Shown: positions 1 through 27,479 of the stretch, one piece after another
Numbering within the stretch: the first letter of the stretch is position 1
How the letters are laid out: each line of letters opens with the position of its first letter
DNA from: a virus
Lineage: Duplodnaviria > Heunggongvirae > Uroviricota > Caudoviricetes
DNA: 29,394 nucleotides
Virus record (IMG/VR): IMGVR_UViG_2690316131_000018
Strand: one strand, 5' to 3'
Program-made: the position numbers and the translations under genes
The notes under the pieces: generated by a model
The model's database searches: none
Told to the model about the DNA's origin: nothing
Seen by the model: the letters and a program-made list of their open reading frames with translations, nothing else

Positions 1-117
<117 letters not shown>

Positions 118-140
<23 letters not shown>

Positions 141-4651: not shown

Positions 4652-5115
4652 TATTTTCTCTCCATGTGAAATCTGTGGAAATTAAGACCAAGAGCACCAT
4701 AAGGCGCGGCTTCTTCAAGCCTGAATCCAAGCCAGTGCAGCCATGCTTTGGCAACATGGTTTCGCTCGTCGACATAGTTTTCCAGGCGCGGATAAACTGC
4801 CAGCATCTGCTGCAATACAGGGCGGCAGTGGCGAAGAAATGTCTTCTGATATTTTTCGATACGGCTGGTTCCGACCAGCCAGGGCGTACCATTGCCACCG
4901 ATCATTGACGCCGGAGATACGCCAAACATGGTTACCAGTTCTCCGTTCGCGAACCCTGACCAGGCCATAGTCGCAGTACGCAGGCCAACACGCAGTGCAT
5001 CTTCGGTAGTCATCAGCGATACCGCATACAGTTCTTCAATATCAGCCTGACGAATATCCGGCAAAATCATCTGAAGATGCTCTTCGGTAGCGGGAATAAT
5101 TCGAACATCGATCAT
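4651..5115 (-). CDS. hypothetical virion-associated protein (gp13-like position)
   Basis: 154-aa ORF, ATG start with ATGA overlaps at both ends, inside the structural operon. Confidence 0.5.
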   Translation of the reverse strand: MIDVRIIPATEEHLQMILPDIRQADIEELYAVSLMTTEDALRVGLRTATMAWSGFANGELVTMFGVSPASMIGGNGTPWLVGTSRIEKYQKTFLRHCRPVLQQMLAVYPRLENYVDERNHVAKAWLHWLGFRLEEAAPYGALGLNFHRFHMERK

Positions 5116-7586
5116 CAGAATCCCCCAACAGTAAGGCGAGGAATAACGGCAAGAACAGACAGCGGCAACGGGTCAAGCTGACGGATTTTTACACGTCCGT
5201 TTTTGCCCCAGTTACTGTCCAGTTTCACTTCTACCTTTCCGGTAGCATCATCAACAGGATCATCGTAGAACTCGAATTCACGCTGTGGATATTCGTACCA
5301 TTTACCGCCGGGCGTAGTCGCCCAGATGCCGCGGCTGGCATTCACAACCAGAGTAACGGACGGGATCACCTGTTTTTTGTCCAGCAGCGTTTCCTGTCCG
5401 TTAATGTTGATATCCAGTGTTTCGAATTCAGCAGTTATTGGCAGGCCGATGTGAACTACAGCCCCCGGAGATTCCAGCGTGACGGCACCTCCGGAAACCA
5501 CTTTCTGTGGTTCCACGTTCGCATCAGAGAGAATGTTTACGGTCTGGCCTTCAAGATGAGACAGGCCTCCAAATGTCCGGCGCGCCATCTGCCAGTTCGT
5601 GGTGGCCACATTCCTGAGGGATGGCGGGACGTTCCTGTTAGCACGAACCACTACAGCGGTATTGCTGGTTACAGAAATAATGTCGCAACGTAATTCTTTT
5701 GACACCTCATCACCAGTATCAGGATCAGTTCCGGTATAAGGGAACTGTAGTTGCGCGCCGACATCACTACTGGTGAAGTACGCACCACCAGAAACACTGA
5801 TTGTATATTCCGCGCGGTAATCCCATTCACCAGAACCACCAGTGATGGTCATCGTTCTGTCAGACGTATTTCTTCCATCATAGCTAAGGCCAGAATCAAC
5901 AAAGAAAGCATCTTCATCGCTGGTAAATAAACGGCTGGACAGTCGCTCGATGTATCTCACTGTTTGCCCGTTAACGGTTCGGTTAACGACGAAATACACC
6001 GCATCTTCATTTCCTTCGCTGATACTGCATGTGCTTTCATATTTTCCGGTACTGGATTGTGGTGCCCATGCAAAAACCTGCTGATCACGCAAATAGGTCA
6101 TCACCAGTAATTTACCGTCATCACGAATGCAGAAGGCGCTGGAGTAAGGGACAATAGAGAAGCACCAGTCAACAATACTGTGCTTCTGAAAAAGATGATT
6201 GGCAAGGATGGTCAGGTCGTTCCCCTGATAGCCGTCAACATCGAATGAGTAGGCCAGATCACGGACAACACTGCCTTTCTCCTGGACGAACAGAGCAATA
6301 TTCGCCACGGCAATTGGTGGGACATTGCTCGAGCCATTTGATCCCTGAGAGCTGAATGCAAATGATGATGGGGTAAGCACTTTGTTCTGGTCGCCAGTGA
6401 TGACGTACTCACCTCCGGAAGTCAGCGCCACCAGCGAACCAACATCAATCAGGTGACGGATCTCATTAACCTGACGCCCGGCATAGGTGTAGATAATTCT
6501 GTCGTCATCCTGCGTAGGATTGCTTTTGCCAAAATCCTTATAATCCCCGGTACGGCTGGCCCAGATAGTCTGAGGAAACGCAGTCGATGCGGCGAAGTAA
6601 AGACGTTGTTGATAATAAACAACAGTGCCAGGATAACCATTAACACTGTTCCAGGCATATTTAGCCCATTTATAGCTGGCATTATCCTCGCCCACGACCT
6701 GCGAAGGGATATAGGAAATCACCTCGGCAGTTGCAGTAGTTCCATTTGCAGCAGTGATACGGGCAATGCCAAAACCACTGTGCAGATATTCCCACTCAAT
6801 GCCAGTATCATCATCACCGGATCCGCCCCAGCCATCTCATGATGTGCCTTCTGTATGCGAAGGGCGCAAAGTACCTGTTTTGCCTGCTGTAACGGCGCGA
6901 TAGTAGTTACTGTCTGCACGGCGAATATCGCCAATCGACGTACTCTTACTGGTTTCCCATACCGGCACTGAATCCACTGCAGGCTGTTCCAGATAGAACA
7001 ATTTGCCTACCTGCTCCGCGCCAAAAATAGAGGCGCTTGCCGTTAACGTAATTGTCCCGGTGCTGGCGCTGGCATAAACCGTCACTGACTCGTCAATATT
7101 GATATCTTCAAATGGCCCGTTCTTCGTTACCACATCAACCAGTTGCCAGTTGTCATGAGCATATCGGCGCAACTCTTTCGGCGGGTATGCCGGGTGAACC
7201 AGCGTAAGCACGTCGGCGCTTTGCGTGAATTTAATTCGGAACAGATCGGCTTCAGTATATGGCGTGGCAATTTCATAAATAACATTGCTGCTGTTCAGCA
7301 CCAACGCACCATCTTTGATAACGCGCATGTACTGGTGTCCGAACTCCAGAGCATAGGTCTGAACCGTCGAGAACTCGAACGGGATCAGGCGGCATTTCCG
7401 ATTTGGGTATTTGGCGGCACCGACAAAACGCGTACCAGGTCGATTCTCAACGCCGCCATACTGCCGCACGATAAAGTTATCGCACTTGCGCAATGCTACC
7501 TGGTACTTCGCCATGTCAATACGCCCGTACAACGACGGTCCAATCTCACCACCGGCAAAGCTGGGCTGGATCCAACTGATAGCCAT
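5115..7586 (-). pseudogene. tail tubular protein B-like (T7 gp12-like) gene interrupted by an in-frame TGA
   Basis: ORFs 6837..7586 (249 aa) and 5115..6722 (535 aa) are in the same frame. The 38 codons between them (6723-6836) are all sense; only TGA at 6837-6839 separates them. No ATG or usable ribosome-binding site precedes the second part. The N-terminus (MAISWIQPSFAGGEIG) resembles the start of T7 gp12 from memory, and combined length is ~820 aa. Confidence 0.6.
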
Positions 7587-9363: not shown

Positions 9364-9383
9364 GTGGGTCTGTTACGACCCAC
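9364..9383 (-). other. stem-loop just after the major capsid gene
   Basis: Inverted repeat GTGGGTC / GACCCAC between the capsid stop (9400) and the next start (9348), with no T-tract. Position is analogous to the attenuator after the capsid gene in T7-like phages. Confidence 0.4.
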
Positions 9384-9399
9384 AGGTTAATAACAGGCG

Positions 9400-13382: not shown

Positions 13383-13397
13383 TTACCTTCAAGGTAA
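13383..13397. promoter_or_regulatory. operator-like palindrome TTACCTTCAAGGTAA, with a TTGACA hexamer at 13361-13366
   Basis: Perfect TTACC-N5-GGTAA in the intergenic region between the portal operon and the tRNA island. A degenerate copy (TTACCAATTTAACCA, 13321-13335) lies ~62 bp away. Confidence 0.45.
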
Positions 13398-13720: not shown

Positions 13721-13797
13721 GTGGCATTAGCTCAGTCGGACAGAGCAACCGCCTTCTAAGCGGTTGGTCGCAGGTTCGAATCCTGCATGCCACGCCA
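13721..13797 (+). tRNA. tRNA-Arg (anticodon UCU), phage-encoded
   Basis: 77-nt cloverleaf folded by hand: acceptor stem GTGGCAT/ATGCCAC, D-stem GCTC/GAGC, anticodon stem ACCGC/GCGGT with loop CTTCTAA, T-arm GCAGG-TTCGAAT-CCTGC, discriminator G and encoded CCA. D- and T-arms resemble host argU; acceptor and anticodon stems differ. Confidence 0.85.
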
Positions 13798-13884: not shown

Positions 13885-13960
13885 AGCAGGACGCCATTGC
13901 GATGACTTCATGCTGTAAACCCGTACAGCCACGGAAGGCATAACTCATTGCTTCCAGTTC

Positions 13961-14019: not shown

Positions 14020-14838
14020 ATGAAAAAATTCAAGGTAATTAGCATGTTTGAATCGTTCAAAGAGCTGTTTTTATCTACTGCCAATACTGCCGTGAATCGA
14101 GCCAAAAACCCTGTGCTTGGTGCTTTTGTTATGTCCTGGTGCGCCTTCAACTGGAAATCAATTCTTTATCTATTTTTTAGCAAATCAAACATAATAGATA
14201 AAATTTCATATATCTCAGATAACAGCACATGGAAAACTGTTATGTTTTATCCATGCTTATCTGTAATTGCTATCTGCTGCCTATTACCATGGGTAAACAA
14301 TATCATTAACGTATGGCAAGCAAAGCCTCTTGATAATAATGACTCAATCGAAAATCACCTGAAGGCAAGAAAAATCCAGCGTGAAACAAGACTGCAGAGG
14401 TTATTGGCTAAAAAAGATGTTACATACGACAAAGTTAAGACTGGCGCGGAAAAAGACATCCAAGAGATGAAAGAAGAGATTATTCGATCAAAGAATAGTA
14501 TGGGGGAATTGACTGCCGAGTTGAAAGCTAAAGATGACGAATTGAGATCCGCCAGTGCTCAGTTAGCAGCTCTAAATCATTCATTAAAAGAGATATCGGA
14601 AACTCTTGGAAGAATGAATGAGGCATATAAGACCCTCCAAAATGATTTCGACGAATACAAACTCAAATACCCTGAAAAATCTCAAATAAAAAGCCTTGCA
14701 CTTGGCAACGGCCAAACAATTAGCAACTTTTTGGAGCAACACAACTTATCCGGATTAAAATCTGGTAAGCCAAACGTTTTTAATAACTTTGGTGTTCTAT
14801 CTGGATTATCAGGTTTCGAGGATAAAAATAAAGACTAA
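14020..14838 (+). CDS. AT-rich cargo gene: predicted membrane protein with long C-terminal coiled coil, unknown function
   Basis: The track ORF starts at 13948, but the probable start is the ATG at ~14020 (MKKFKVISMF), just after a TATAAT. Two hydrophobic segments near the N-terminus, then a charged heptad-like region. AT-rich versus the rest of the window. Convergent with the terminase gene, stops overlapping. Confidence 0.6.
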   Translation: MKKFKVISMFESFKELFLSTANTAVNRAKNPVLGAFVMSWCAFNWKSILYLFFSKSNIIDKISYISDNSTWKTVMFYPCLSVIAICCLLPWVNNIINVWQAKPLDNNDSIENHLKARKIQRETRLQRLLAKKDVTYDKVKTGAEKDIQEMKEEIIRSKNSMGELTAELKAKDDELRSASAQLAALNHSLKEISETLGRMNEAYKTLQNDFDEYKLKYPEKSQIKSLALGNGQTISNFLEQHNLSGLKSGKPNVFNNFGVLSGLSGFEDKNKD

Positions 14839-16310: not shown

Positions 16311-17017
16311 TGATTACCATCCTGACGTTCTTTGAGTCGCTTCCTGGCTGCTGCTATGCGATCAGCAATTGTCACATTCACATTAACATCCAGGCGTTCT
16401 TTGAATGCGTTGACGTCGACGTGCTTACCGATGAGCTCGAGGTTTTTCACCTTGTCGGGCCATTTCACCTTCTTCAGGATATGCTCGACATCCTCAACAG
16501 AGAGATCCGCCTCGCCATTCTCTTTTTGCAGGGAAGCCTGGGTTGTCTTGATGGTAGCGATATCCATAGCACTGAGAGAGGTACGCCAGACCTTCGGCCA
16601 TTCAGTGATCGGCTTCATCCCGCCGTCATCGTTCAGTATATCCAGCACGTCCATCTGGTCTATTTCCACCAGGCGCATGAGAACGTAATCAGCACTGACG
16701 CGCATTCGTTTGTTGCGCTCCTCCATCAACTCGGCAATCCGTTTTTGAATGCGTTCATCGCGCATCATGACACTGGCTTTAACTGCCGCTGTATTTGGAG
16801 AGAATCCTGCGTTAATCGCTGCCTGAGTCTGGTTTTCAGGCGTTTTGATGTATGACTGGCAATAAGCCTCCTGCATTGCTGTTAGTGGCTTAAATTGCGT
16901 TGATTTGCGTTTATAGGTTTTAGGTTCAGCAGGCATCATAACCACCCTGGTAATTGTTACCGTCGTGGTAATAGTAACATGCAAAATAAAGCCGCCATAG
17001 TTGGCGGCAGTATTCAA
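16307..17017 (-). CDS. terminase small subunit
   Basis: Motif AYCQSYIKTPENQTQAAINAGFS is typical of phage small terminases. Probable start is the ATG at ~16939 (MMPAEPK); the longer track N-terminus would run through a terminator and operator. Confidence 0.65.
   Translation of the reverse strand: MNTAANYGGFILHVTITTTVTITRVVMMPAEPKTYKRKSTQFKPLTAMQEAYCQSYIKTPENQTQAAINAGFSPNTAAVKASVMMRDERIQKRIAELMEERNKRMRVSADYVLMRLVEIDQMDVLDILNDDGGMKPITEWPKVWRTSLSAMDIATIKTTQASLQKENGEADLSVEDVEHILKKVKWPDKVKNLELIGKHVDVNAFKERLDVNVNVTIADRIAAARKRLKERQDGNQ
16957..16971. promoter_or_regulatory. operator-like palindrome TTACCGTCGTGGTAA just upstream of the terminase genes
   Basis: Perfect TTACC-N5-GGTAA between the terminator (16981-17008) and the small terminase start (~16939). 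Confidence 0.45.
16981..17008 (-). terminator. rho-independent terminator between the nin-like block and the terminase genes
   Basis: GCCGCC-N6-GGCGGC hairpin followed on the - strand by TTTATTTTG. Confidence 0.5.
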
Positions 17018-20545: not shown

Positions 20546-20622
20546 TTACCTCTGAGGTAATTAAAAACCACATAAGACACGAAATCAATAGATTTTAGAA
20601 TATTTTATTACCTAACAGGTAA
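20546..20622 (-). promoter_or_regulatory. repressible promoter for the nin-like block, flanked by two operator palindromes
   Basis: On the - strand: operator TTACCTGTTAGGTAA (20608-20622), then -35 TTGATT (20583-20588), 17-nt spacer, -10 TTTAAT (20560-20565), then operator TTACCTCAGAGGTAA (20546-20560) abutting the -10 and containing the ribosome-binding site for the ATG at 20542. Confidence 0.5.
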
Positions 20623-22553: not shown

Positions 22554-22568
22554 TTACCTTTGAGGTAC
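22554..22568. promoter_or_regulatory. operator-like palindrome TTACCTTTGAGGTAC
   Basis: Imperfect TTACC-N5-GGTAA between the Cro-like gene's terminator hairpin and the next gene. Confidence 0.4.
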
Positions 22569-22623: not shown

Positions 22624-22854
22624 TCATGAGTAGAAGAAGTATGCCAGTTCTGCTTTTGAGCGCAGCCATTGTCTTGTTTTACAGGCTTTAAAAAGCCCAT
22701 TCATCAATACCTTACCTGGGATTTTGCGCTTACCTGTTAAGTGAGTCTGGATATAGTGACTCGTCGTTCCGGCTTCCTGTGCGAAGGCTTCACGCTCATC
22801 CGGAGTAAGTGCAAGCCAGTGCTTTTTGAAATCGAAATGTCCGTTATCGCTCAT
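22624..22854 (-). CDS. Cro/CII-like HTH regulator, first gene of the rightward-equivalent operon
   Basis: 76-aa ORF with ATG start, divergent from the repressor gene. HTH-like segment EAGTTSHYIQTHLTGKRKIP. Confidence 0.55.
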   Translation of the reverse strand: MSDNGHFDFKKHWLALTPDEREAFAQEAGTTSHYIQTHLTGKRKIPGKVLMNGLFKACKTRQWLRSKAELAYFFYS

Positions 22855-22890: not shown

Positions 22891-22953
22891 TCACCCATAA
22901 GGTAACAAAAATCAAGGATAGTTACCTGTGGGGTGCATTTACCTGTTGGGTAA
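22891..22953. promoter_or_regulatory. tripartite operator region between the Cro-like and repressor genes
   Basis: Three TTACC-N5-GGTAA-type sites: TCACCCATAAGGTAA (22891-22905), TTACCTGTGGGGTGC (22922-22936) and the perfect TTACCTGTTGGGTAA (22939-22953). Confidence 0.6.
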
Positions 22954-23008: not shown

Positions 23009-23593
23009 ATGAAAAGTATCCAGGACGTCCGCAGGCAAAATCTCAACGACTTGATCGACCGTGAATTCAATGGTGTTCAGACGCGGATGGCAGAAAAACT
23101 TGGAACTCAGGCAAATCTGGTAAACCGCTGGGCTCTTGGCAAGAAGGTTATCGGCGACCAGGTTGCGCGAAAAATCGAAGCTGCCGCCAATAAACCCCGT
23201 AACTGGCTTGATATCGATCGCTCGCTTTCTCAGGAAGGTTTTCAGCCTGTCGGACCAAGCGACATTGGTCAACTGGCGGCTCACAACCTGGAACGCTGGA
23301 TGAGCGAAAGCCGCGACCTTTCAACACAGGGAAAACTTCACCGCGCATCTGGCGTCTCCCAGGTGACAATCAGCCGCCTGTTAAACAATGAGGTCAGCGT
23401 TTCCATTTCCACCCTGGAGAATGTTGCATCCGCATTCGGGCGTCACGGCTATGAATTACTGATTCACCCGCACGACCCTGCGACCATCAACTATGACCGC
23501 TCGCGCTACGCATTGTTACCCGAAACCGAGAAAGCAAAGATCGAAAGTTACATTGAATTTGTCATCAACCAGAACGAAAAAAACAAACAATAA
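23009..23593 (+). CDS. prophage repressor-like HTH protein, no obvious autocleavage domain
   Basis: 194-aa ORF with ATG start, divergent from the Cro-like gene. Two HTH-like segments (QTRMAEKLGTQANLVNRWA and ASGVSQVTISRLL). I see no Ser/Lys peptidase motifs. Confidence 0.6.
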   Translation: MKSIQDVRRQNLNDLIDREFNGVQTRMAEKLGTQANLVNRWALGKKVIGDQVARKIEAAANKPRNWLDIDRSLSQEGFQPVGPSDIGQLAAHNLERWMSESRDLSTQGKLHRASGVSQVTISRLLNNEVSVSISTLENVASAFGRHGYELLIHPHDPATINYDRSRYALLPETEKAKIESYIEFVINQNEKNKQ

Positions 23594-23613: not shown

Positions 23614-23640
23614 AAGCCGCCTTCTGGCGGCTTTTTTATT
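23614..23640 (+). terminator. rho-independent terminator after the repressor gene
   Basis: AAGCCGCC-TTCT-GGCGGCTT followed by TTTTATT. Confidence 0.6.
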
Positions 23641-23650
23641 GCCTGTTTGA

Positions 23651-23727
23651 TTACCTAAAGGGTAATTTTTTTAACTCATATCTATTGACACCAAACCAAA
23701 TACGCATAATCATTACCTCAACGGTAA
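23651..23727 (+). promoter_or_regulatory. pL-like early-left promoter with two flanking operator palindromes
   Basis: TTACCTAAAGGGTAA (23651-23665), TTGACA (23685-23690), CATAAT-like -10, then TTACCTCAACGGTAA (23713-23727). Operator centres are ~62 bp apart, as at the nin promoter. Confidence 0.5.
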
Positions 23728-23899: not shown

Positions 23900-24201
23900 T
23901 AATGAACGTTAATCAGCAGAAAAATCTTCAAAAAATCATGCTGGCATTCGACAAGGACTACCGCCTGTCAGAACAGCTATATGACCGACAAGTTGAACTG
24001 ATCGAGAGCATCCGGCTTCATCAACTAGCCTCAACTTTCGACGCTGTAACAGGTAAAGGCGTTCGCCAGGAAGTACTGGAGGCCGCTAAAGACAGTCCAG
24101 AGTTCGAAGAACTGATGGATTCCTACCGGCGCGAGGCAATGGCAATTATCGCCCGCTGGGATCTGGCTGATCAGCTTGATGGACAGAGGGACGCGGCATG
24201 A
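23887..24201 (+). CDS. hypothetical early protein
   Basis: Probable start is the ATG at ~23902 (MNVNQQK), preceded by GGGAGGG. Stop overlaps the exonuclease start. Confidence 0.5.
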   Translation: MGGLIMNVNQQKNLQKIMLAFDKDYRLSEQLYDRQVELIESIRLHQLASTFDAVTGKGVRQEVLEAAKDSPEFEELMDSYRREAMAIIARWDLADQLDGQRDAA

Positions 24202-25097
24202 TGCGGAACGCTGGAATCATGGATAGAACAAAATACATCGGAGGAAGCGATGTTGCAGGGATTCTTGGAATTAGCCCATGGCGCACCCCGCTTGAGGTTT
24301 ATCTGGATAAGGTACAGCCACGTGTCAAACCAGTAGACCCAAGCAAGCAGAAAGTTTTCACGCGTGGCCAGCGTATGGAGCCATACGTAATAGACCTGCT
24401 TTCTGAGGAAACAGGGATGGAAATCGTTCATCGCGGAAACCGCTATATCCACCGTGATTACGATTTTATTGCAGCTGAGATCGATGCAGAAGCAGCGTCA
24501 GGCGAGAACATTGAGATCAAAACAGTTAGTCCGTTCAAAGCCAAAGAATGGGGAGAAATCCAGACAGATGCAATTCCTGTGCATTACACGGCCCAGGCCA
24601 TGCACGGGTTGATGGTTACAAACAAACAGGTATGCGTTTTCGGTGTGCTTATCGGTGGCGACGACTTCCGAATCTATCGGGTTGAGCGTGATGAAGAAAC
24701 TATCCAGGCAATCTTAGAAAAAGAAATCGCTTTCTGGGACCGAGTGAAAAATCTTAACCCGCCGGAAGCTACCAGCGTAAGCGATATATCGCTGATGTTT
24801 GAGAAAGATGCCGGGACAAGTATCGAGGCTGACGGAAAGGCACTCGCACTATTCAACGATCTACGAGACATGAAGTCACGCAGAAAATCACTGGAAGAAG
24901 AAATAGCTATATCAGAAGAGAAGCTGAAGATGTACATGCAAGAGCACTCAGTCCTGACCCTGGACGGAAAGCCGCTCTGCACATGGAAATCTCAGATCAG
25001 CAACAGATTCGACCAGAAGCTATTCCAGTCAGTACACCCTGAGTTATTCGAAAAATTCAAAACAACAACGACACAACGCGTCTTCAGAATGAAGTAA
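24198..25097 (+). CDS. YqaJ-like viral recombination exonuclease
   Basis: N-terminal GGSDVAGILGISPWRTPLEVY is characteristic of the YqaJ domain. Directly upstream of RecT. Confidence 0.75.
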   Translation: MMRNAGIMDRTKYIGGSDVAGILGISPWRTPLEVYLDKVQPRVKPVDPSKQKVFTRGQRMEPYVIDLLSEETGMEIVHRGNRYIHRDYDFIAAEIDAEAASGENIEIKTVSPFKAKEWGEIQTDAIPVHYTAQAMHGLMVTNKQVCVFGVLIGGDDFRIYRVERDEETIQAILEKEIAFWDRVKNLNPPEATSVSDISLMFEKDAGTSIEADGKALALFNDLRDMKSRRKSLEEEIAISEEKLKMYMQEHSVLTLDGKPLCTWKSQISNRFDQKLFQSVHPELFEKFKTTTTQRVFRMK

Positions 25098-25106
25098 GGA
25101 GAAAAA

Positions 25107-26129
25107 ATGTCTATCAATGCACTTAAGGCAGCGGCTACCGGTAACCAAGTTGCACATCATAATGAGAAACCAACAACTCTGGCCGGACTTCTGGCAGACC
25201 CAAAAATTAAAGCTCAGATGGCTTTGGCACTTCCAAAGCACATGACAGCAGACCGTCTGGCGCGCATAGCAACCACAGAGATCCGAAAGGTTCCAAAACT
25301 TGCATCATGCGACCAAGCCAGCTTCCTGGGGGCAATTATGCAATGTGCCCAATTGGGTCTTGAACCAGGCGGAGCTCTTGGACACGCTTACCTGATACCG
25401 TTCGACAAACGCCAGAAAGTAAATGGAAGATGGGAAACCGTATCTACAGAAGCACAGCTGATTATCGGCTATCGCGGAATGATTGACCTTGCCCGCCGCT
25501 CTGGGCAGATCCTGAGTATCTCGGCTCGTACCGTACATACAAACGACAAATTCAGCTACTCATACGGCCTGGAAGAAACGCTCGAGCATTTACCTTGCGA
25601 AACAGGTGACCGAGGAGAATTAACGCACGTTTACGCCGTTGCACGACTGAAAGATGGCGGAGTCCAATTTGAAGTTATGAGCCGGGCAGACATTGAGAAA
25701 GTTCGTGCACTGAGCAAAGCCGGTAGCAGTGGCCCATGGGTTGATCACTTCGATGAGATGGCTAAAAAAACAGTAATTCGCCGACTATTCAAATATCTTC
25801 CTGTTTCTATTGAAATGCAGAAGGCTGTTGTTATGGATGAGCGCGCTGAAGCTGGACTTAGCCAAGATAACGCAGCTGTTATCACTGGTGAATATTCCGT
25901 AGTTGACGATGAGCGTCAACACCTGTCGCCAATTTCAGATTCAGAACGAGAAGAAGCTCGAGAATATATCATCGCGATACTTAATAGCCTGGATCCATCT
26001 GCTGAAGATGCAAAAACGATGTTCAAGCGCGCTGAAAATGAGATTAACACCATGGCTGAAAAGCTCGGTGATGAATATCACCAAAAATTCATGATGACGC
26101 TTAACGATATGCGTCCAGAATTCGAGTAA
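25107..26129 (+). CDS. recT: RecT-family single-strand annealing protein
   Basis: 340-aa ORF with RecT-like conserved blocks, paired with the YqaJ-like exonuclease. Confidence 0.8.
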   Translation: MSINALKAAATGNQVAHHNEKPTTLAGLLADPKIKAQMALALPKHMTADRLARIATTEIRKVPKLASCDQASFLGAIMQCAQLGLEPGGALGHAYLIPFDKRQKVNGRWETVSTEAQLIIGYRGMIDLARRSGQILSISARTVHTNDKFSYSYGLEETLEHLPCETGDRGELTHVYAVARLKDGGVQFEVMSRADIEKVRALSKAGSSGPWVDHFDEMAKKTVIRRLFKYLPVSIEMQKAVVMDERAEAGLSQDNAAVITGEYSVVDDERQHLSPISDSEREEAREYIIAILNSLDPSAEDAKTMFKRAENEINTMAEKLGDEYHQKFMMTLNDMRPEFE

Positions 26130-26540: not shown

Positions 26541-26836
26541 GAAAGTTAAGCCGACTTGAAAAATATCACATGAACAAGGTTTCAATGCGCAGCCCTTCAA
26601 AGGTTGTTGCCGTTACTCCTGCGGCGATAGAGATCGAAAAACGCGCGATTGAAAGAGAGAAAAAAGGGCAGTTCCGCATTGCCGCTCACCTTTGGCTTCA
26701 GTGTATGGATGTTGCTTCTGGTGATGTTGAGCGTGCAAGGATCGCGGTTCGCAGGGACCAATGTATCACAAAAGGTAACGGCCTTCGCCGTGGCGACTAT
26801 AGCGGCATAGGATGTTGTGGGGTGGTTTATGACTAA
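26537..26836 (+). CDS. PerC-like transcriptional activator family protein (tentative)
   Basis: 99-aa ORF with GTG start and GAGAGGG upstream. EREKKGQFRIAAHLWLQCMDV resembles the PerC/Pch signature from memory. Confidence 0.4.
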   Translation: MRKLSRLEKYHMNKVSMRSPSKVVAVTPAAIEIEKRAIEREKKGQFRIAAHLWLQCMDVASGDVERARIAVRRDQCITKGNGLRRGDYSGIGCCGVVYD

Positions 26837-27479
26837 GAAATACACACTAATCTATGCAGATCCACCCTGGGTATACCGGGACAAAGCCGCAGATGGTAAT
26901 CGCGGTGCCGGTTTTAAATATCCGGTTATGAGTGTGCTGGATATCTGCCGCCTTCCTGTGTGGGATTTGGCCGATGAAAACTGTCTGTTGGCCATGTGGT
27001 GGGTGCCAACACAACCACTCGAAGCGCTAAAAGTTGTTGAAGCCTGGGGATTTCGCCTTATGACCATGAAGGGCTTCACGTGGATAAAATGTGGTAGTCG
27101 ACAACCAGATAAACTGGTTATGGGTATGGGACACATGACTCGCGCCAATAGTGAAGATTGCCTGTTTGCGGTAAAGGGAAAACTACCTCCGCGCATTAAT
27201 GCAGGGATCGTTCAGTCATTTACCGCACCGCGGCTTGAGCACTCAAGAAAACCAGATGTCGTTCGTGAAAAACTTGTGCAATTGTTAGGCGATGTTTCTC
27301 GCATTGAACTGTTCGCCCGCCAGTCGTCTCATGGCTTCGATGTTTGGGGTAATCAGTGTGAAGACCCGGCAGTGCAACTACACCCTGGATACGCGTTGGA
27401 TATTGCCAGATTAACAAATGCATTCAGCAATGCTCCGCTGTCACCAACAGACAACCAGGGGCGGGAGCGTGCAGCATGA
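26817..27479 (+). CDS. MT-A70-family DNA N6-adenine methyltransferase
   Basis: Catalytic DPPW motif in [10 protein letters not shown]. Probable start is the ATG at ~26829 with GGGGTGG upstream. Stop overlaps the phosphatase start. Confidence 0.75.

What the first reader, a model, noticed from the sequence alone, without database searches (positions are those of the whole stretch)
23009..23593. Repressor lacks an obvious LexA-type autocleavage domain
The protein at the cI position has two HTH-like segments but I see no serine-lysine peptidase signature, so RecA-mediated autocleavage is unlikely. Induction may depend on an antirepressor, not seen in this window, or on another mechanism.
Basis: inference. 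Interest (0 to 1): 0.45.

Follow-up and report, generated by a model that had tools for sequence, protein, structure and literature searches.

The report
Non-cleavable phage repressor, antirepressor-controlled (known type)
The gene is the lysogeny repressor of a phiV10/epsilon15-like E. coli prophage; it has no self-cleaving protease domain because it belongs to the already characterised SPC32H "Rep" family, which a small SOS-controlled antirepressor switches off, so the finding is correct but ordinary.

Summary
ORF 23009-23593 (+) encodes a 194-aa protein with two helix-turn-helix domains. No Peptidase_S24 signal appears by single-sequence Pfam search, by profile search of the PDB, or by fold search. 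The protein has no Ala-Gly or Cys-Gly dipeptide.

The interpretation (antirepressor-dependent induction, antirepressor outside the window) is supported, but it is already known biology.
- The protein is 99.5% identical to the phiV10/vB_EcoP_ZX5 repressor. Overexpressing the ZX5 repressor blocks the ZX5 lytic cycle (PMC9782041).
- It is a full-length homologue (42% identity, E 4e-42) of Salmonella phage SPC32H Rep (PDB 5D50/5D4Z).
- As later papers describe it, SPC32H Rep binds DNA as a tetramer and a tetrameric antirepressor (Ant), made after the SOS response, pulls it apart.

Of 37 phage records with a Rep homologue, 35 have an Ant homologue. In five sampled relatives ant carries a LexA box 39 nt upstream of its start codon.

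The window has no ant because the contig ends in an ISKpn26 copy inside a virion gene.

The window also shows a conserved set of TTACC-N5-GGTAA palindromes, probably Rep operators. Three lie between rep and the cro-like gene. Pairs 62 bp apart bracket two promoters.

Novelty: already known. Interest: low.

The parts
23009..23593 (+). rep: 194-aa lysogeny repressor, SPC32H-Rep family. It is 99.5% identical to phiV10p40 and differs only by A117S.
23009..23218 (+). N-terminal domain (aa 1-70), a Cro/YdaS-type HTH. The predicted recognition helix lies around aa 35-43 (NLVNRW, conserved in SPC32H Rep). This is the inferred DNA-binding domain.
   Evidence: role inferred from 5D50 homology and PMC9638917
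23273..23590 (+). C-terminal domain (aa 89-194), an HTH_3-like helical bundle plus a long C-terminal helix. It is homologous to the crystallised Rep(92-198) tetramerisation and Ant-binding domain. It is not an S24 peptidase.
22891..22905 (.). Operator-like palindrome TCACCCATAAGGTAA. It overlaps the -35/spacer of the predicted rightward (cro-side) promoter (-35 at 22908-22903, -10 at 22885-22880).
22922..22936 (.). Weak middle operator-like site TTACCTGTGGGGTGC (2 mismatches). It occupies the position of the second operator in SPC32H and Klebsiella phage BUCT711.
22939..22953 (.). Perfect palindrome TTACCTGTTGGGTAA, 70 nt upstream of the rep start codon.
22624..22854 (-). Divergent 76-aa cro-like gene (PHROG 35, transcriptional repressor, E 5e-13).
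23614..23633 (+). Intrinsic terminator immediately after rep.
   Evidence: also annotated in phiV10
23651..23727 (+). Early-left promoter module. Order: operator 23651-23665, 19 nt, -35 TTGACA at 23685, 17-nt spacer, -10 AATCAT ending at 23713, operator 23713-23727. The two operators start 62 bp apart.
20546..20622 (-). Second copy of the same promoter module (operators at 20608-20622 and 20546-20560, 62 bp apart) in front of the DUF1064 operon.
16939..16971 (-). Two tandem palindromes (18 bp apart) directly upstream of the terminase small-subunit start codon.
13383..13397 (.). Single perfect palindrome upstream of the portal/structural operon. An equivalent site exists in SPC32H (3175) and phiV10 (3252).
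22554..22568 (.). Palindrome with one mismatch, 455 nt upstream of rep, between the cro-like gene's terminator and the next gene. It is conserved at the same position in phiV10, Tyrion and BUCT711.
1..139 (.). End of an IS5-like ISKpn26 copy (100% identity) interrupting a virion gene. The source contig ends here, which is why the ant/tailspike/lysis part of the prophage is missing.

Best explanation
ORF 23009-23593 is the lysogeny repressor (Rep) of a phiV10/epsilon15-like (Uetakevirus) prophage of E. coli and a member of the SPC32H Rep family.

Proposed mechanism:
1. The N-terminal Cro-type HTH domain reads 15-bp TTACC-N5-GGTAA palindromes (inferred).
2. The C-terminal HTH-like helical domain assembles the protein into dimers and tetramers (by homology to 5D4Z).
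3. The tetramer occupies three operators between rep and the divergent cro-like gene. It probably also bridges operator pairs 62 bp apart that bracket the early-left promoter and a second promoter, keeping lytic transcription off (inferred from conserved site geometry).
4. Rep has no S24 peptidase domain and is not cleaved in a RecA-dependent way (absence of the domain is shown; absence of cleavage is inferred).
5. Induction goes through LexA. An ~85-aa antirepressor gene (ant) lies next to the tailspike gene behind a LexA box. After DNA damage LexA cleaves itself and Ant is made. An Ant tetramer then binds the C-terminal domains of two Rep dimers and takes the Rep tetramer off the DNA (published for SPC32H; inferred here).
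6. In phiV10-type phages a second protein, a Bro-N protein ending in an Ant-like domain, probably does the same. Its overexpression lowers lysogeny in ZX5.

In this particular assembly the ant region is not on the contig. The prophage also carries an IS insertion and a split tail gene, so it may no longer make virions.
For: - Identity: 99.5% identical to phiV10p40 and the ZX5 repressor.
- Family: full-length match to SPC32H Rep 5D50 (E 4e-42 as a single sequence; 9.6e-65 as a profile). Foldseek top hits are all 5D50/5D4Z.
- No S24 by Pfam, NCBIfam, PDB profile search or predicted fold.
- Experimental support for the near-identical protein: ZX5 ORF21 overexpression abolishes free phage and lowers endolysin and holin transcripts by 99.99% and 99.97%. 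The Bro-N ORF4 'anti-repressor' lowers lysogeny (PMC9782041).
- Mechanism in SPC32H as summarised by others: Ant made after LexA cleavage inhibits the repressor by protein contact (PMC7380047). Rep binds DNA as a tetramer, and tetrameric Ant binds two Rep dimers and breaks the tetramer (PMC9638917).
- Co-occurrence: 35 phage records hold an Ant homologue against 37 with a Rep homologue, mostly the same records.
- LexA control: a box TACTGT-N8-ACAGT lies 39 nt before the ant ATG in SPC32H, phiV10, TL-2011b, Tyrion and an E. coli prophage.
- Operators: 10 TTACC-N5-GGTAA sites in the window against 0.47 expected, with 0 of 100 shuffles reaching 10. Most of the same site positions relative to rep (about -455, -118, -86, -70, +57, +119) recur in five phages whose Reps are 42-99.5% identical. 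The site at 23713 abuts the -10 of a 10/12 sigma-70 promoter, and 22891 overlaps the cro-side promoter.
Against: - No ant gene can be shown for this genome, because the contig ends before that region.
- Rep is only 38% identical to SPC32H Rep in the Ant-binding C-terminal domain, while Ant is 88% identical. The conserved contact is therefore assumed, not shown.
- I could not read the primary SPC32H papers. The published operator sequence and interface residues were therefore not compared.
- The assignment of the palindromes to Rep, rather than to the cro-like protein or another regulator, rests on position and conservation only.
- The ZX5 study used overexpression and did not test LexA, RecA or Rep cleavage.
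Confidence: 0.85

Rival explanations
1. The repressor is inactivated by RecA-stimulated self-cleavage after all, through a cryptic or non-S24 catalytic site.
For: None found. The only possible cleavage target is a flexible linker between the domains (aa 74-83, pLDDT < 50).
Against: - No S24 match at any sensitivity.
- The predicted fold is all-helical.
- The sequence has no Ala-Gly or Cys-Gly dipeptide.
- None of 86 homologue clusters has PF00717.
- The characterised homologue is reported to work by antirepression.
Confidence: 0.02
2. In phiV10-type E. coli phages the working antirepressor is not the small LexA-controlled Ant. It is the larger Bro-N (or P22_AR_N) protein with an Ant-like C-terminal domain, possibly under a different control. 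Induction would then be largely spontaneous or respond to a signal other than SOS.
For: - ZX5 ORF4 (Bro-N) overexpression reduces lysogeny, and ZX5 lysogens release 10^7 PFU/mL spontaneously.
- ORF4 and its homologues end in an ~80-aa Ant-like domain.
- In the E. coli 3908 prophage the small ant is truncated after about 35 codons while the fusions are intact.
Against: - The small ant and its LexA box are intact in ZX5, phiV10, TL-2011b and Tyrion.
- The Bro-N gene lies downstream of ant in the same orientation. It may be co-transcribed from the LexA-controlled promoter, although a terminator is annotated between them in phiV10.
- In phiV10 it is the Bro-N fusion that is truncated.
Confidence: 0.1
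3. The gene is a relic. The prophage is defective, and Rep now serves only as an immunity or regulatory protein, so no induction pathway operates.
For: - An ISKpn26 copy is inserted in a virion gene at window 1-139.
- An 823-aa tail gene is split into 249-aa and 535-aa ORFs.
Against: - rep, its operators, the cro-like gene and the promoter modules are intact and nearly identical to those of viable phages.
- This reading concerns the outcome of induction and is compatible with the main explanation of how Rep works.
Confidence: 0.4

Closest known systems
Rep/Ant antirepression system of Salmonella phage SPC32H (Kim & Ryu 2013, J Virol 87:11775; Rep and Rep-Ant structures PDB 5D4Z, 5D50)
   Same: - Full-length homology of 194 aa against 198 aa, with the same two-domain layout and no S24 domain.
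- The same gene position: divergent from a cro-like gene and followed by the recombination operon.
- The same operator half-sites and spacing: a three-site cluster upstream of rep and a 62-bp pair downstream.
- In phages with the same Rep as the window, an 88%-identical Ant sits behind a LexA box next to the tailspike gene.
   Different: - Only 42% identity overall: 54% in the N-terminal domain, 38% in the C-terminal domain and an unrelated linker.
- The central 5 bp of the operators differ, so immunity specificity may differ.
- The middle operator upstream of rep is degenerate here.
- ant cannot be seen for this genome.
- phiV10-type phages add a second Ant-domain protein, fused to Bro-N.
[quoted passage not shown]
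   Same: - The repressor differs from the window protein at one residue (99.5% identity).
- Both belong to the same phage type (Uetakevirus); ZX5 integrates at the 3' end of guaA.
- The repressor function was tested by overexpression.
   Different: - ZX5 and phiV10 are viable phages, whereas the window prophage carries an IS insertion and a split tail gene.
- The recombination and moron genes differ (mosaicism).
Gifsy-1/Gifsy-3 repressors with LexA-controlled antirepressors, and coliphage 186 CI/Tum
   Same: The logic is the same: a non-cleavable repressor, with the SOS signal relayed by a small LexA-repressed antirepressor that binds the repressor (PMC7380047; PMC3121763 listed).
   Different: No homology to these proteins was tested here. 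The resemblance is functional only.
Lambda cI / P22 C2 / LexA (S24 autocleaving repressors)
   Same: - An N-terminal HTH domain, a divergent cro-like gene, multiple operators and cooperative oligomers.
- SOS is the upstream signal.
   Different: - No S24 domain, no cleavage-site dipeptide and no Ser-Lys dyad fold.
- Inactivation is reversible, by protein binding instead of proteolysis.

Membership tests
SPC32H-type Rep (non-cleavable two-domain phage repressor) | Full-length sequence homology to Rep of PDB 5D50 | tested here: met
   E 4.3e-42 over aa 1-190. The family profile gives E 9.6e-65.
SPC32H-type Rep (non-cleavable two-domain phage repressor) | N-terminal HTH domain plus a helical C-terminal oligomerisation domain matching Rep(92-198) | tested here: met
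   Pfam domains. The AF2 model is all-helical. Foldseek against 5D4Z gives TM 0.68-0.75 normalised to the target.
SPC32H-type Rep (non-cleavable two-domain phage repressor) | Immunity-region position with clustered palindromic operators | tested here: met
   The gene is divergent from the cro-like gene. Sites in this cluster at -118/-86/-70 and a pair at +57/+119 are shared, in most positions, with SPC32H, Tyrion, BUCT711 and phiV10. That Rep binds these sites is inferred.
SPC32H-type Rep (non-cleavable two-domain phage repressor) | Cognate Ant gene in the same genome | not testable with these tools
   No Ant is encoded in the window. The contig ends in ISKpn26. Ant is present in 35 phage records, nearly all of those that hold Rep, including phiV10.
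SPC32H-type Rep (non-cleavable two-domain phage repressor) | ant under LexA control | tested here: inconclusive
   A LexA box lies at -39 from the ant ATG in five relatives, with a one-mismatch version in a Klebsiella phage. This is not testable for this genome, and LexA binding was not assayed.
SPC32H-type Rep (non-cleavable two-domain phage repressor) | Rep tetramer dissociated by Ant binding, with no cleavage on induction | not testable with these tools
   Needs biochemistry. Known only for SPC32H, through summaries in PMC9638917 and PMC7380047.
LexA/cI-type autocleaving repressor (Peptidase S24) | C-terminal Peptidase_S24 domain with a Ser-Lys dyad | tested here: not met
   No PF00717 match at E <= 1. 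No LexA, cI or UmuD in the PDB profile search at E <= 10. The model has no beta strands.
LexA/cI-type autocleaving repressor (Peptidase S24) | Ala-Gly or Cys-Gly cleavage site in the linker | tested here: not met
   Neither dipeptide occurs anywhere in the protein.

The most novel reading that the evidence does not exclude
One tetrameric repressor may silence the whole phage directly. Copies of its palindromic operator stand in front of nearly every transcription unit: the early-left and cro-side promoters, the DUF1064 operon, terminase and the structural operon, plus (in relatives) the ant/tailspike region and int. At two promoters a fixed module recurs: operator, 19 nt, -35, 17 nt, -10, operator, with the operators 62 bp apart. 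This spacing would let the two DNA-binding faces of one Rep tetramer clamp the RNA polymerase site. In addition, the Rep-binding Ant fold would be a portable module that phages fuse to Bro-N or P22_AR_N heads, so that several inputs can converge on one repressor. I do not know whether either point has been described for this phage group, because I could not read the primary papers.
Probability: 0.3. Interest if true: 0.4.

Novelty: already known. Interest (0 to 1): 0.15.

Why it matters
- It gives a correct annotation. This prophage repressor should be labelled an SPC32H-type Rep, and its induction should be predicted from the ant/LexA module, not from RecA-mediated cleavage.
- For E. coli O157 and APEC prophages of the phiV10 type, SOS-inducing drugs would still induce the phage, but by a reversible, titratable route. 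Antirepressors of co-resident prophages could also cross-induce it.
- The conserved operator map gives a testable picture of how a Rep tetramer might clamp promoters.
- None of this changes current understanding of phage switches.

Tried and rejected
- **AlphaFold2 without an alignment.** The model was unusable (pLDDT 43.5). It was repeated with a 35-sequence alignment.
- **Primary SPC32H and epsilon15 papers.** They are not held in the library. Their content is cited through later papers and through my recollection of the abstracts, marked as such.
- **LexA boxes inside the window.** Two CTGT-N8-ACAG matches occur (9370 and 13913; 0.32 expected, 4 of 100 shuffles reach two). Both have GC-rich cores. 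One lies between capsid genes and one downstream of tRNA-Arg, neither next to a promoter or an antirepressor-like gene, so I judged them probably chance.
- **Antirepressor genes inside the window.** tblastn with SPC32H Ant, Bro-N, P22_AR_N and Arc/Mnt-like proteins gave nothing below E 0.01.
- **Recovering the rest of the prophage.** The exact-protein look-up shows the source contig (CYDD01000008.1 of GCA_001284925.1) ends at window position 1. No record in the E. coli or phage collections contains the whole window.
- **A Pfam family for Ant.** None exists.
- **PADLOC on Rep.** No hit.

Full report
**1. The observation**

The coordinates are those of a real ORF: 23009..23593 (+), ATG start, 194 aa.
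- Pfam finds an HTH_3 domain at aa 106-147 (E 1.4e-10; HTH_26, LacI and HTH_31 overlap it). It also finds a Cro/YdaS-type HTH at aa 21-61. There is no Peptidase_S24 match at E <= 1, and NCBIfam adds nothing of that kind.
- To strengthen the negative result I aligned 35 family members and searched the profile against every PDB sequence at E <= 10. The hits are SPC32H Rep, a Neisseria HTH factor, HigA antitoxins, LacI headpieces and two weak unrelated chains. There is no LexA, cI or UmuD.
- An AlphaFold2 model from that alignment (pLDDT 79) is wholly helical. It has bundles at aa 4-59 and 83-151, a disordered linker at 74-83 and a C-terminal helix at 172-193.
- Foldseek against the PDB returns only Rep structures at E <= 0.001.
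- The protein has no Ala-Gly or Cys-Gly dipeptide and no cysteine.
- None of 86 homologue clusters, all about 190-200 aa and all from Enterobacterales, carries PF00717.

**2. What it is**

The window is a phiV10/epsilon15-like (Uetakevirus) prophage.
- The 1.8 kb around the gene is 96-98% identical to phiV10, the O157 typing phages 9 and 10, TL-2011b, vB_EcoP_ZX5 and others.
- The protein is 99.5% identical to phiV10p40. The single difference is A117S.
- It is 42% identical over its full length to the repressor of epsilon15 and of SPC32H.
- The PDB holds that homologue as 5D50 (Rep-Ant complex) and 5D4Z (Rep C-terminal domain). The match covers aa 1-190 with E 4.3e-42.

The gene order is the usual immunity layout:
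- On the minus strand: a divergent 76-aa cro-like gene (22624-22854), then DnaT-like and lambda-P-like replication genes.
- On the plus strand: a terminator after rep, then a promoter, then two small genes, an exonuclease and RecT.

**3. What is already known about this protein**

- Li et al. 2022 (PMC9782041) state that the ZX5 repressor ORF21 has the same sequence as phiV10 ORF40.
  - Its overexpression removed free phage and lowered endolysin and holin transcripts by 99.99% and 99.97%.
  - Overexpression of the Bro-N protein ORF4, annotated as anti-repressor, lowered the number of lysogens about 1000-fold.
- For SPC32H, a review (PMC7380047) cites Kim & Ryu 2013. It says that after LexA self-cleavage an antirepressor is made that inhibits the repressor through protein-protein contact.
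- PMC9638917 summarises the structural work. Rep exists as dimers and tetramers and binds palindromic DNA as a tetramer. The DNA-reading pairs come from different dimers. Tetrameric Ant binds two Rep dimers and breaks the tetramer.
- I could not open the primary papers. My memory of the PNAS 2016 abstract agrees with these summaries.

**4. The antirepressor**

- SPC32H ant is an 86-aa gene beside the tailspike gene. tblastn finds no copy in the window. Bro-N, P22_AR_N and Arc-type proteins are also absent.
- In the phage collection, 35 records hold an Ant homologue against 37 with a Rep homologue, and they are largely the same records.
- phiV10p24 is 88% identical to SPC32H Ant, although the Reps are only 42% identical.
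- In SPC32H, phiV10, TL-2011b, Tyrion and an E. coli 3908 prophage, a box TACTGT-N8-ACAGT lies 39 nt before the ant ATG. A Klebsiella phage has a one-mismatch version.
- By phiV10 coordinates, ant would lie about 4 kb beyond window position 1.
- The window cannot show it. An exact-protein look-up places window position 1 at the end of contig CYDD01000008.1 of GCA_001284925.1. Bases 1-139 are 100% identical to the end of ISKpn26, an IS5-like element, which interrupts a virion gene that is 1004 aa long in a related prophage.

**5. Operators**

- The motif TTACC-N5-GGTAA (one mismatch allowed) occurs 10 times in the window against 0.47 expected, and none of 100 shuffles reaches 10. It occurs 18 times in SPC32H against 0.66 expected.
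- Relative to the rep start codon, sites lie at about -118, -86 and -70 and, after the rep stop, at +57 and +119.
  - The pair after the stop recurs in the window, phiV10, SPC32H, Tyrion and Klebsiella phage BUCT711.
  - Upstream, each phage has two or three of the three sites at one mismatch or fewer. A further site at -455 occurs in four of the five.
  - The 62-bp (63 in one case) spacing of the downstream pair is kept although the central bases differ.
- The pair brackets a 10/12 sigma-70 promoter: -35 at 23685 and -10 ending at 23713, where the second operator starts.
- Exactly the same layout (operator, 19 nt, -35, 17 nt, -10, operator) recurs at 20608/20546 in front of the DUF1064 operon.
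- The site at 22891 overlaps the predicted cro-side promoter.
- Further copies stand before terminase (16939, 16957) and before the structural operon (13383). In relatives there are also copies 91 nt upstream of ant and upstream of int.
- That Rep is the protein reading these sites is an inference from position, conservation and the conserved NLVNRW helix of the N-terminal domain.
- Because the Rep tetramer has two DNA-reading pairs, bridging of the 62-bp pairs is a plausible but untested refinement.

**6. Mechanism and confidence**

- Shown here: family membership, absence of an S24 domain, an intact immunity region and conserved palindromes.
- Shown by others for a near-identical protein: repression of lytic genes.
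- Shown by others for a 42%-identical protein: the tetramer, Ant binding and LexA control.
- Inferred here: that the same applies to this Rep, and that the palindromes are its operators.

Overall confidence is 0.85.

The main uncertainties are three. The Ant-binding domain has diverged much more than Ant itself (38% against 88% identity). The roles of the small Ant and of the Bro-N/Ant fusions are not separated. It is unknown whether this prophage still has an ant.

**7. Comparison and novelty**

The system works like, and by sequence belongs to, the SPC32H Rep/Ant antirepression family. It shares only the logic, not demonstrated homology, with the Gifsy and 186 Tum systems. It fails both testable defining features of S24 autocleaving repressors.

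Novelty: already known. Interest: 0.15.

The operator network and the portable Ant domain are the only parts that might go beyond what has been described.

Noticed in passing
window 1-139: The window starts inside the end of an IS5-like ISKpn26 copy (100% identity). It is inserted in a virion gene, leaving a 413-aa ORF (118-1359) where a related prophage has a 1004-aa protein. The assembly contig ends here.
   Followed up: yes
window 5115-7586 (-): The gene for the 823-aa tail protein (intact in another contig, L005) is split here into a 249-aa ORF (6837-7586) and a 535-aa ORF (5115-6722). Together with the IS insertion, this suggests a defective prophage or a sequencing error.
   Followed up: partly
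window 13383, 16939, 16957, 20546, 20608, 22554, 22891, 22939, 23651, 23713: TTACC-N5-GGTAA palindromes stand in front of most transcription units of the phage. A repeated promoter module has operators 62 bp apart. The layout is conserved in five phages, but I could not check it against the literature.
   Followed up: partly
L009 3171-3866 (ZX5 ORF4); L006 4903-5598; L007 2079-2783; L003 4944-5630 and 6804-7748: Bro-N and P22_AR_N 'antirepressor' proteins of related phages end in an ~80-aa domain homologous to SPC32H Ant (about 38% identity). No Pfam family covers it. In the E. coli 3908 prophage the small ant is truncated and the fusions are intact. In phiV10 the small ant is intact and the Bro-N fusion is truncated.
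   Followed up: partly
window 14020-14838 (+): A moron-like gene is transcribed against the late genes: 272 aa with an apparently hydrophobic N-terminal part and a coiled-coil-like rest, judged by eye. It has no Pfam hit and only coiled-coil-level PADLOC hits. It replaces the Gp49-family gene of phiV10 and is preceded by CTACCTTAAAGGTATAAT, an operator-like site fused to a -10 box.
   Followed up: partly
window 9370-9385 and 13913-13928: Two CTGT-N8-ACAG matches have GC-rich cores. One lies between capsid genes and one downstream of tRNA-Arg (13721-13797). The same sequences occur in a related E. coli prophage (L003), but neither is at a promoter, so they are probably not LexA sites.
   Followed up: partly
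window 24198-26129 (+): The recombination module here consists of separate exonuclease (299 aa) and RecT (340 aa) genes. phiV10 has a single annotated RecE/RecT fusion gene, so the early-left operon is mosaic.
   Followed up: no
window 27476-28135 (+): A calcineurin-like Ser/Thr phosphatase gene (Metallophos) lies next to an MT-A70 methyltransferase gene (26817-27479) at the integrase end. phiV10 has a DUF1382 gene at that position.
   Followed up: no
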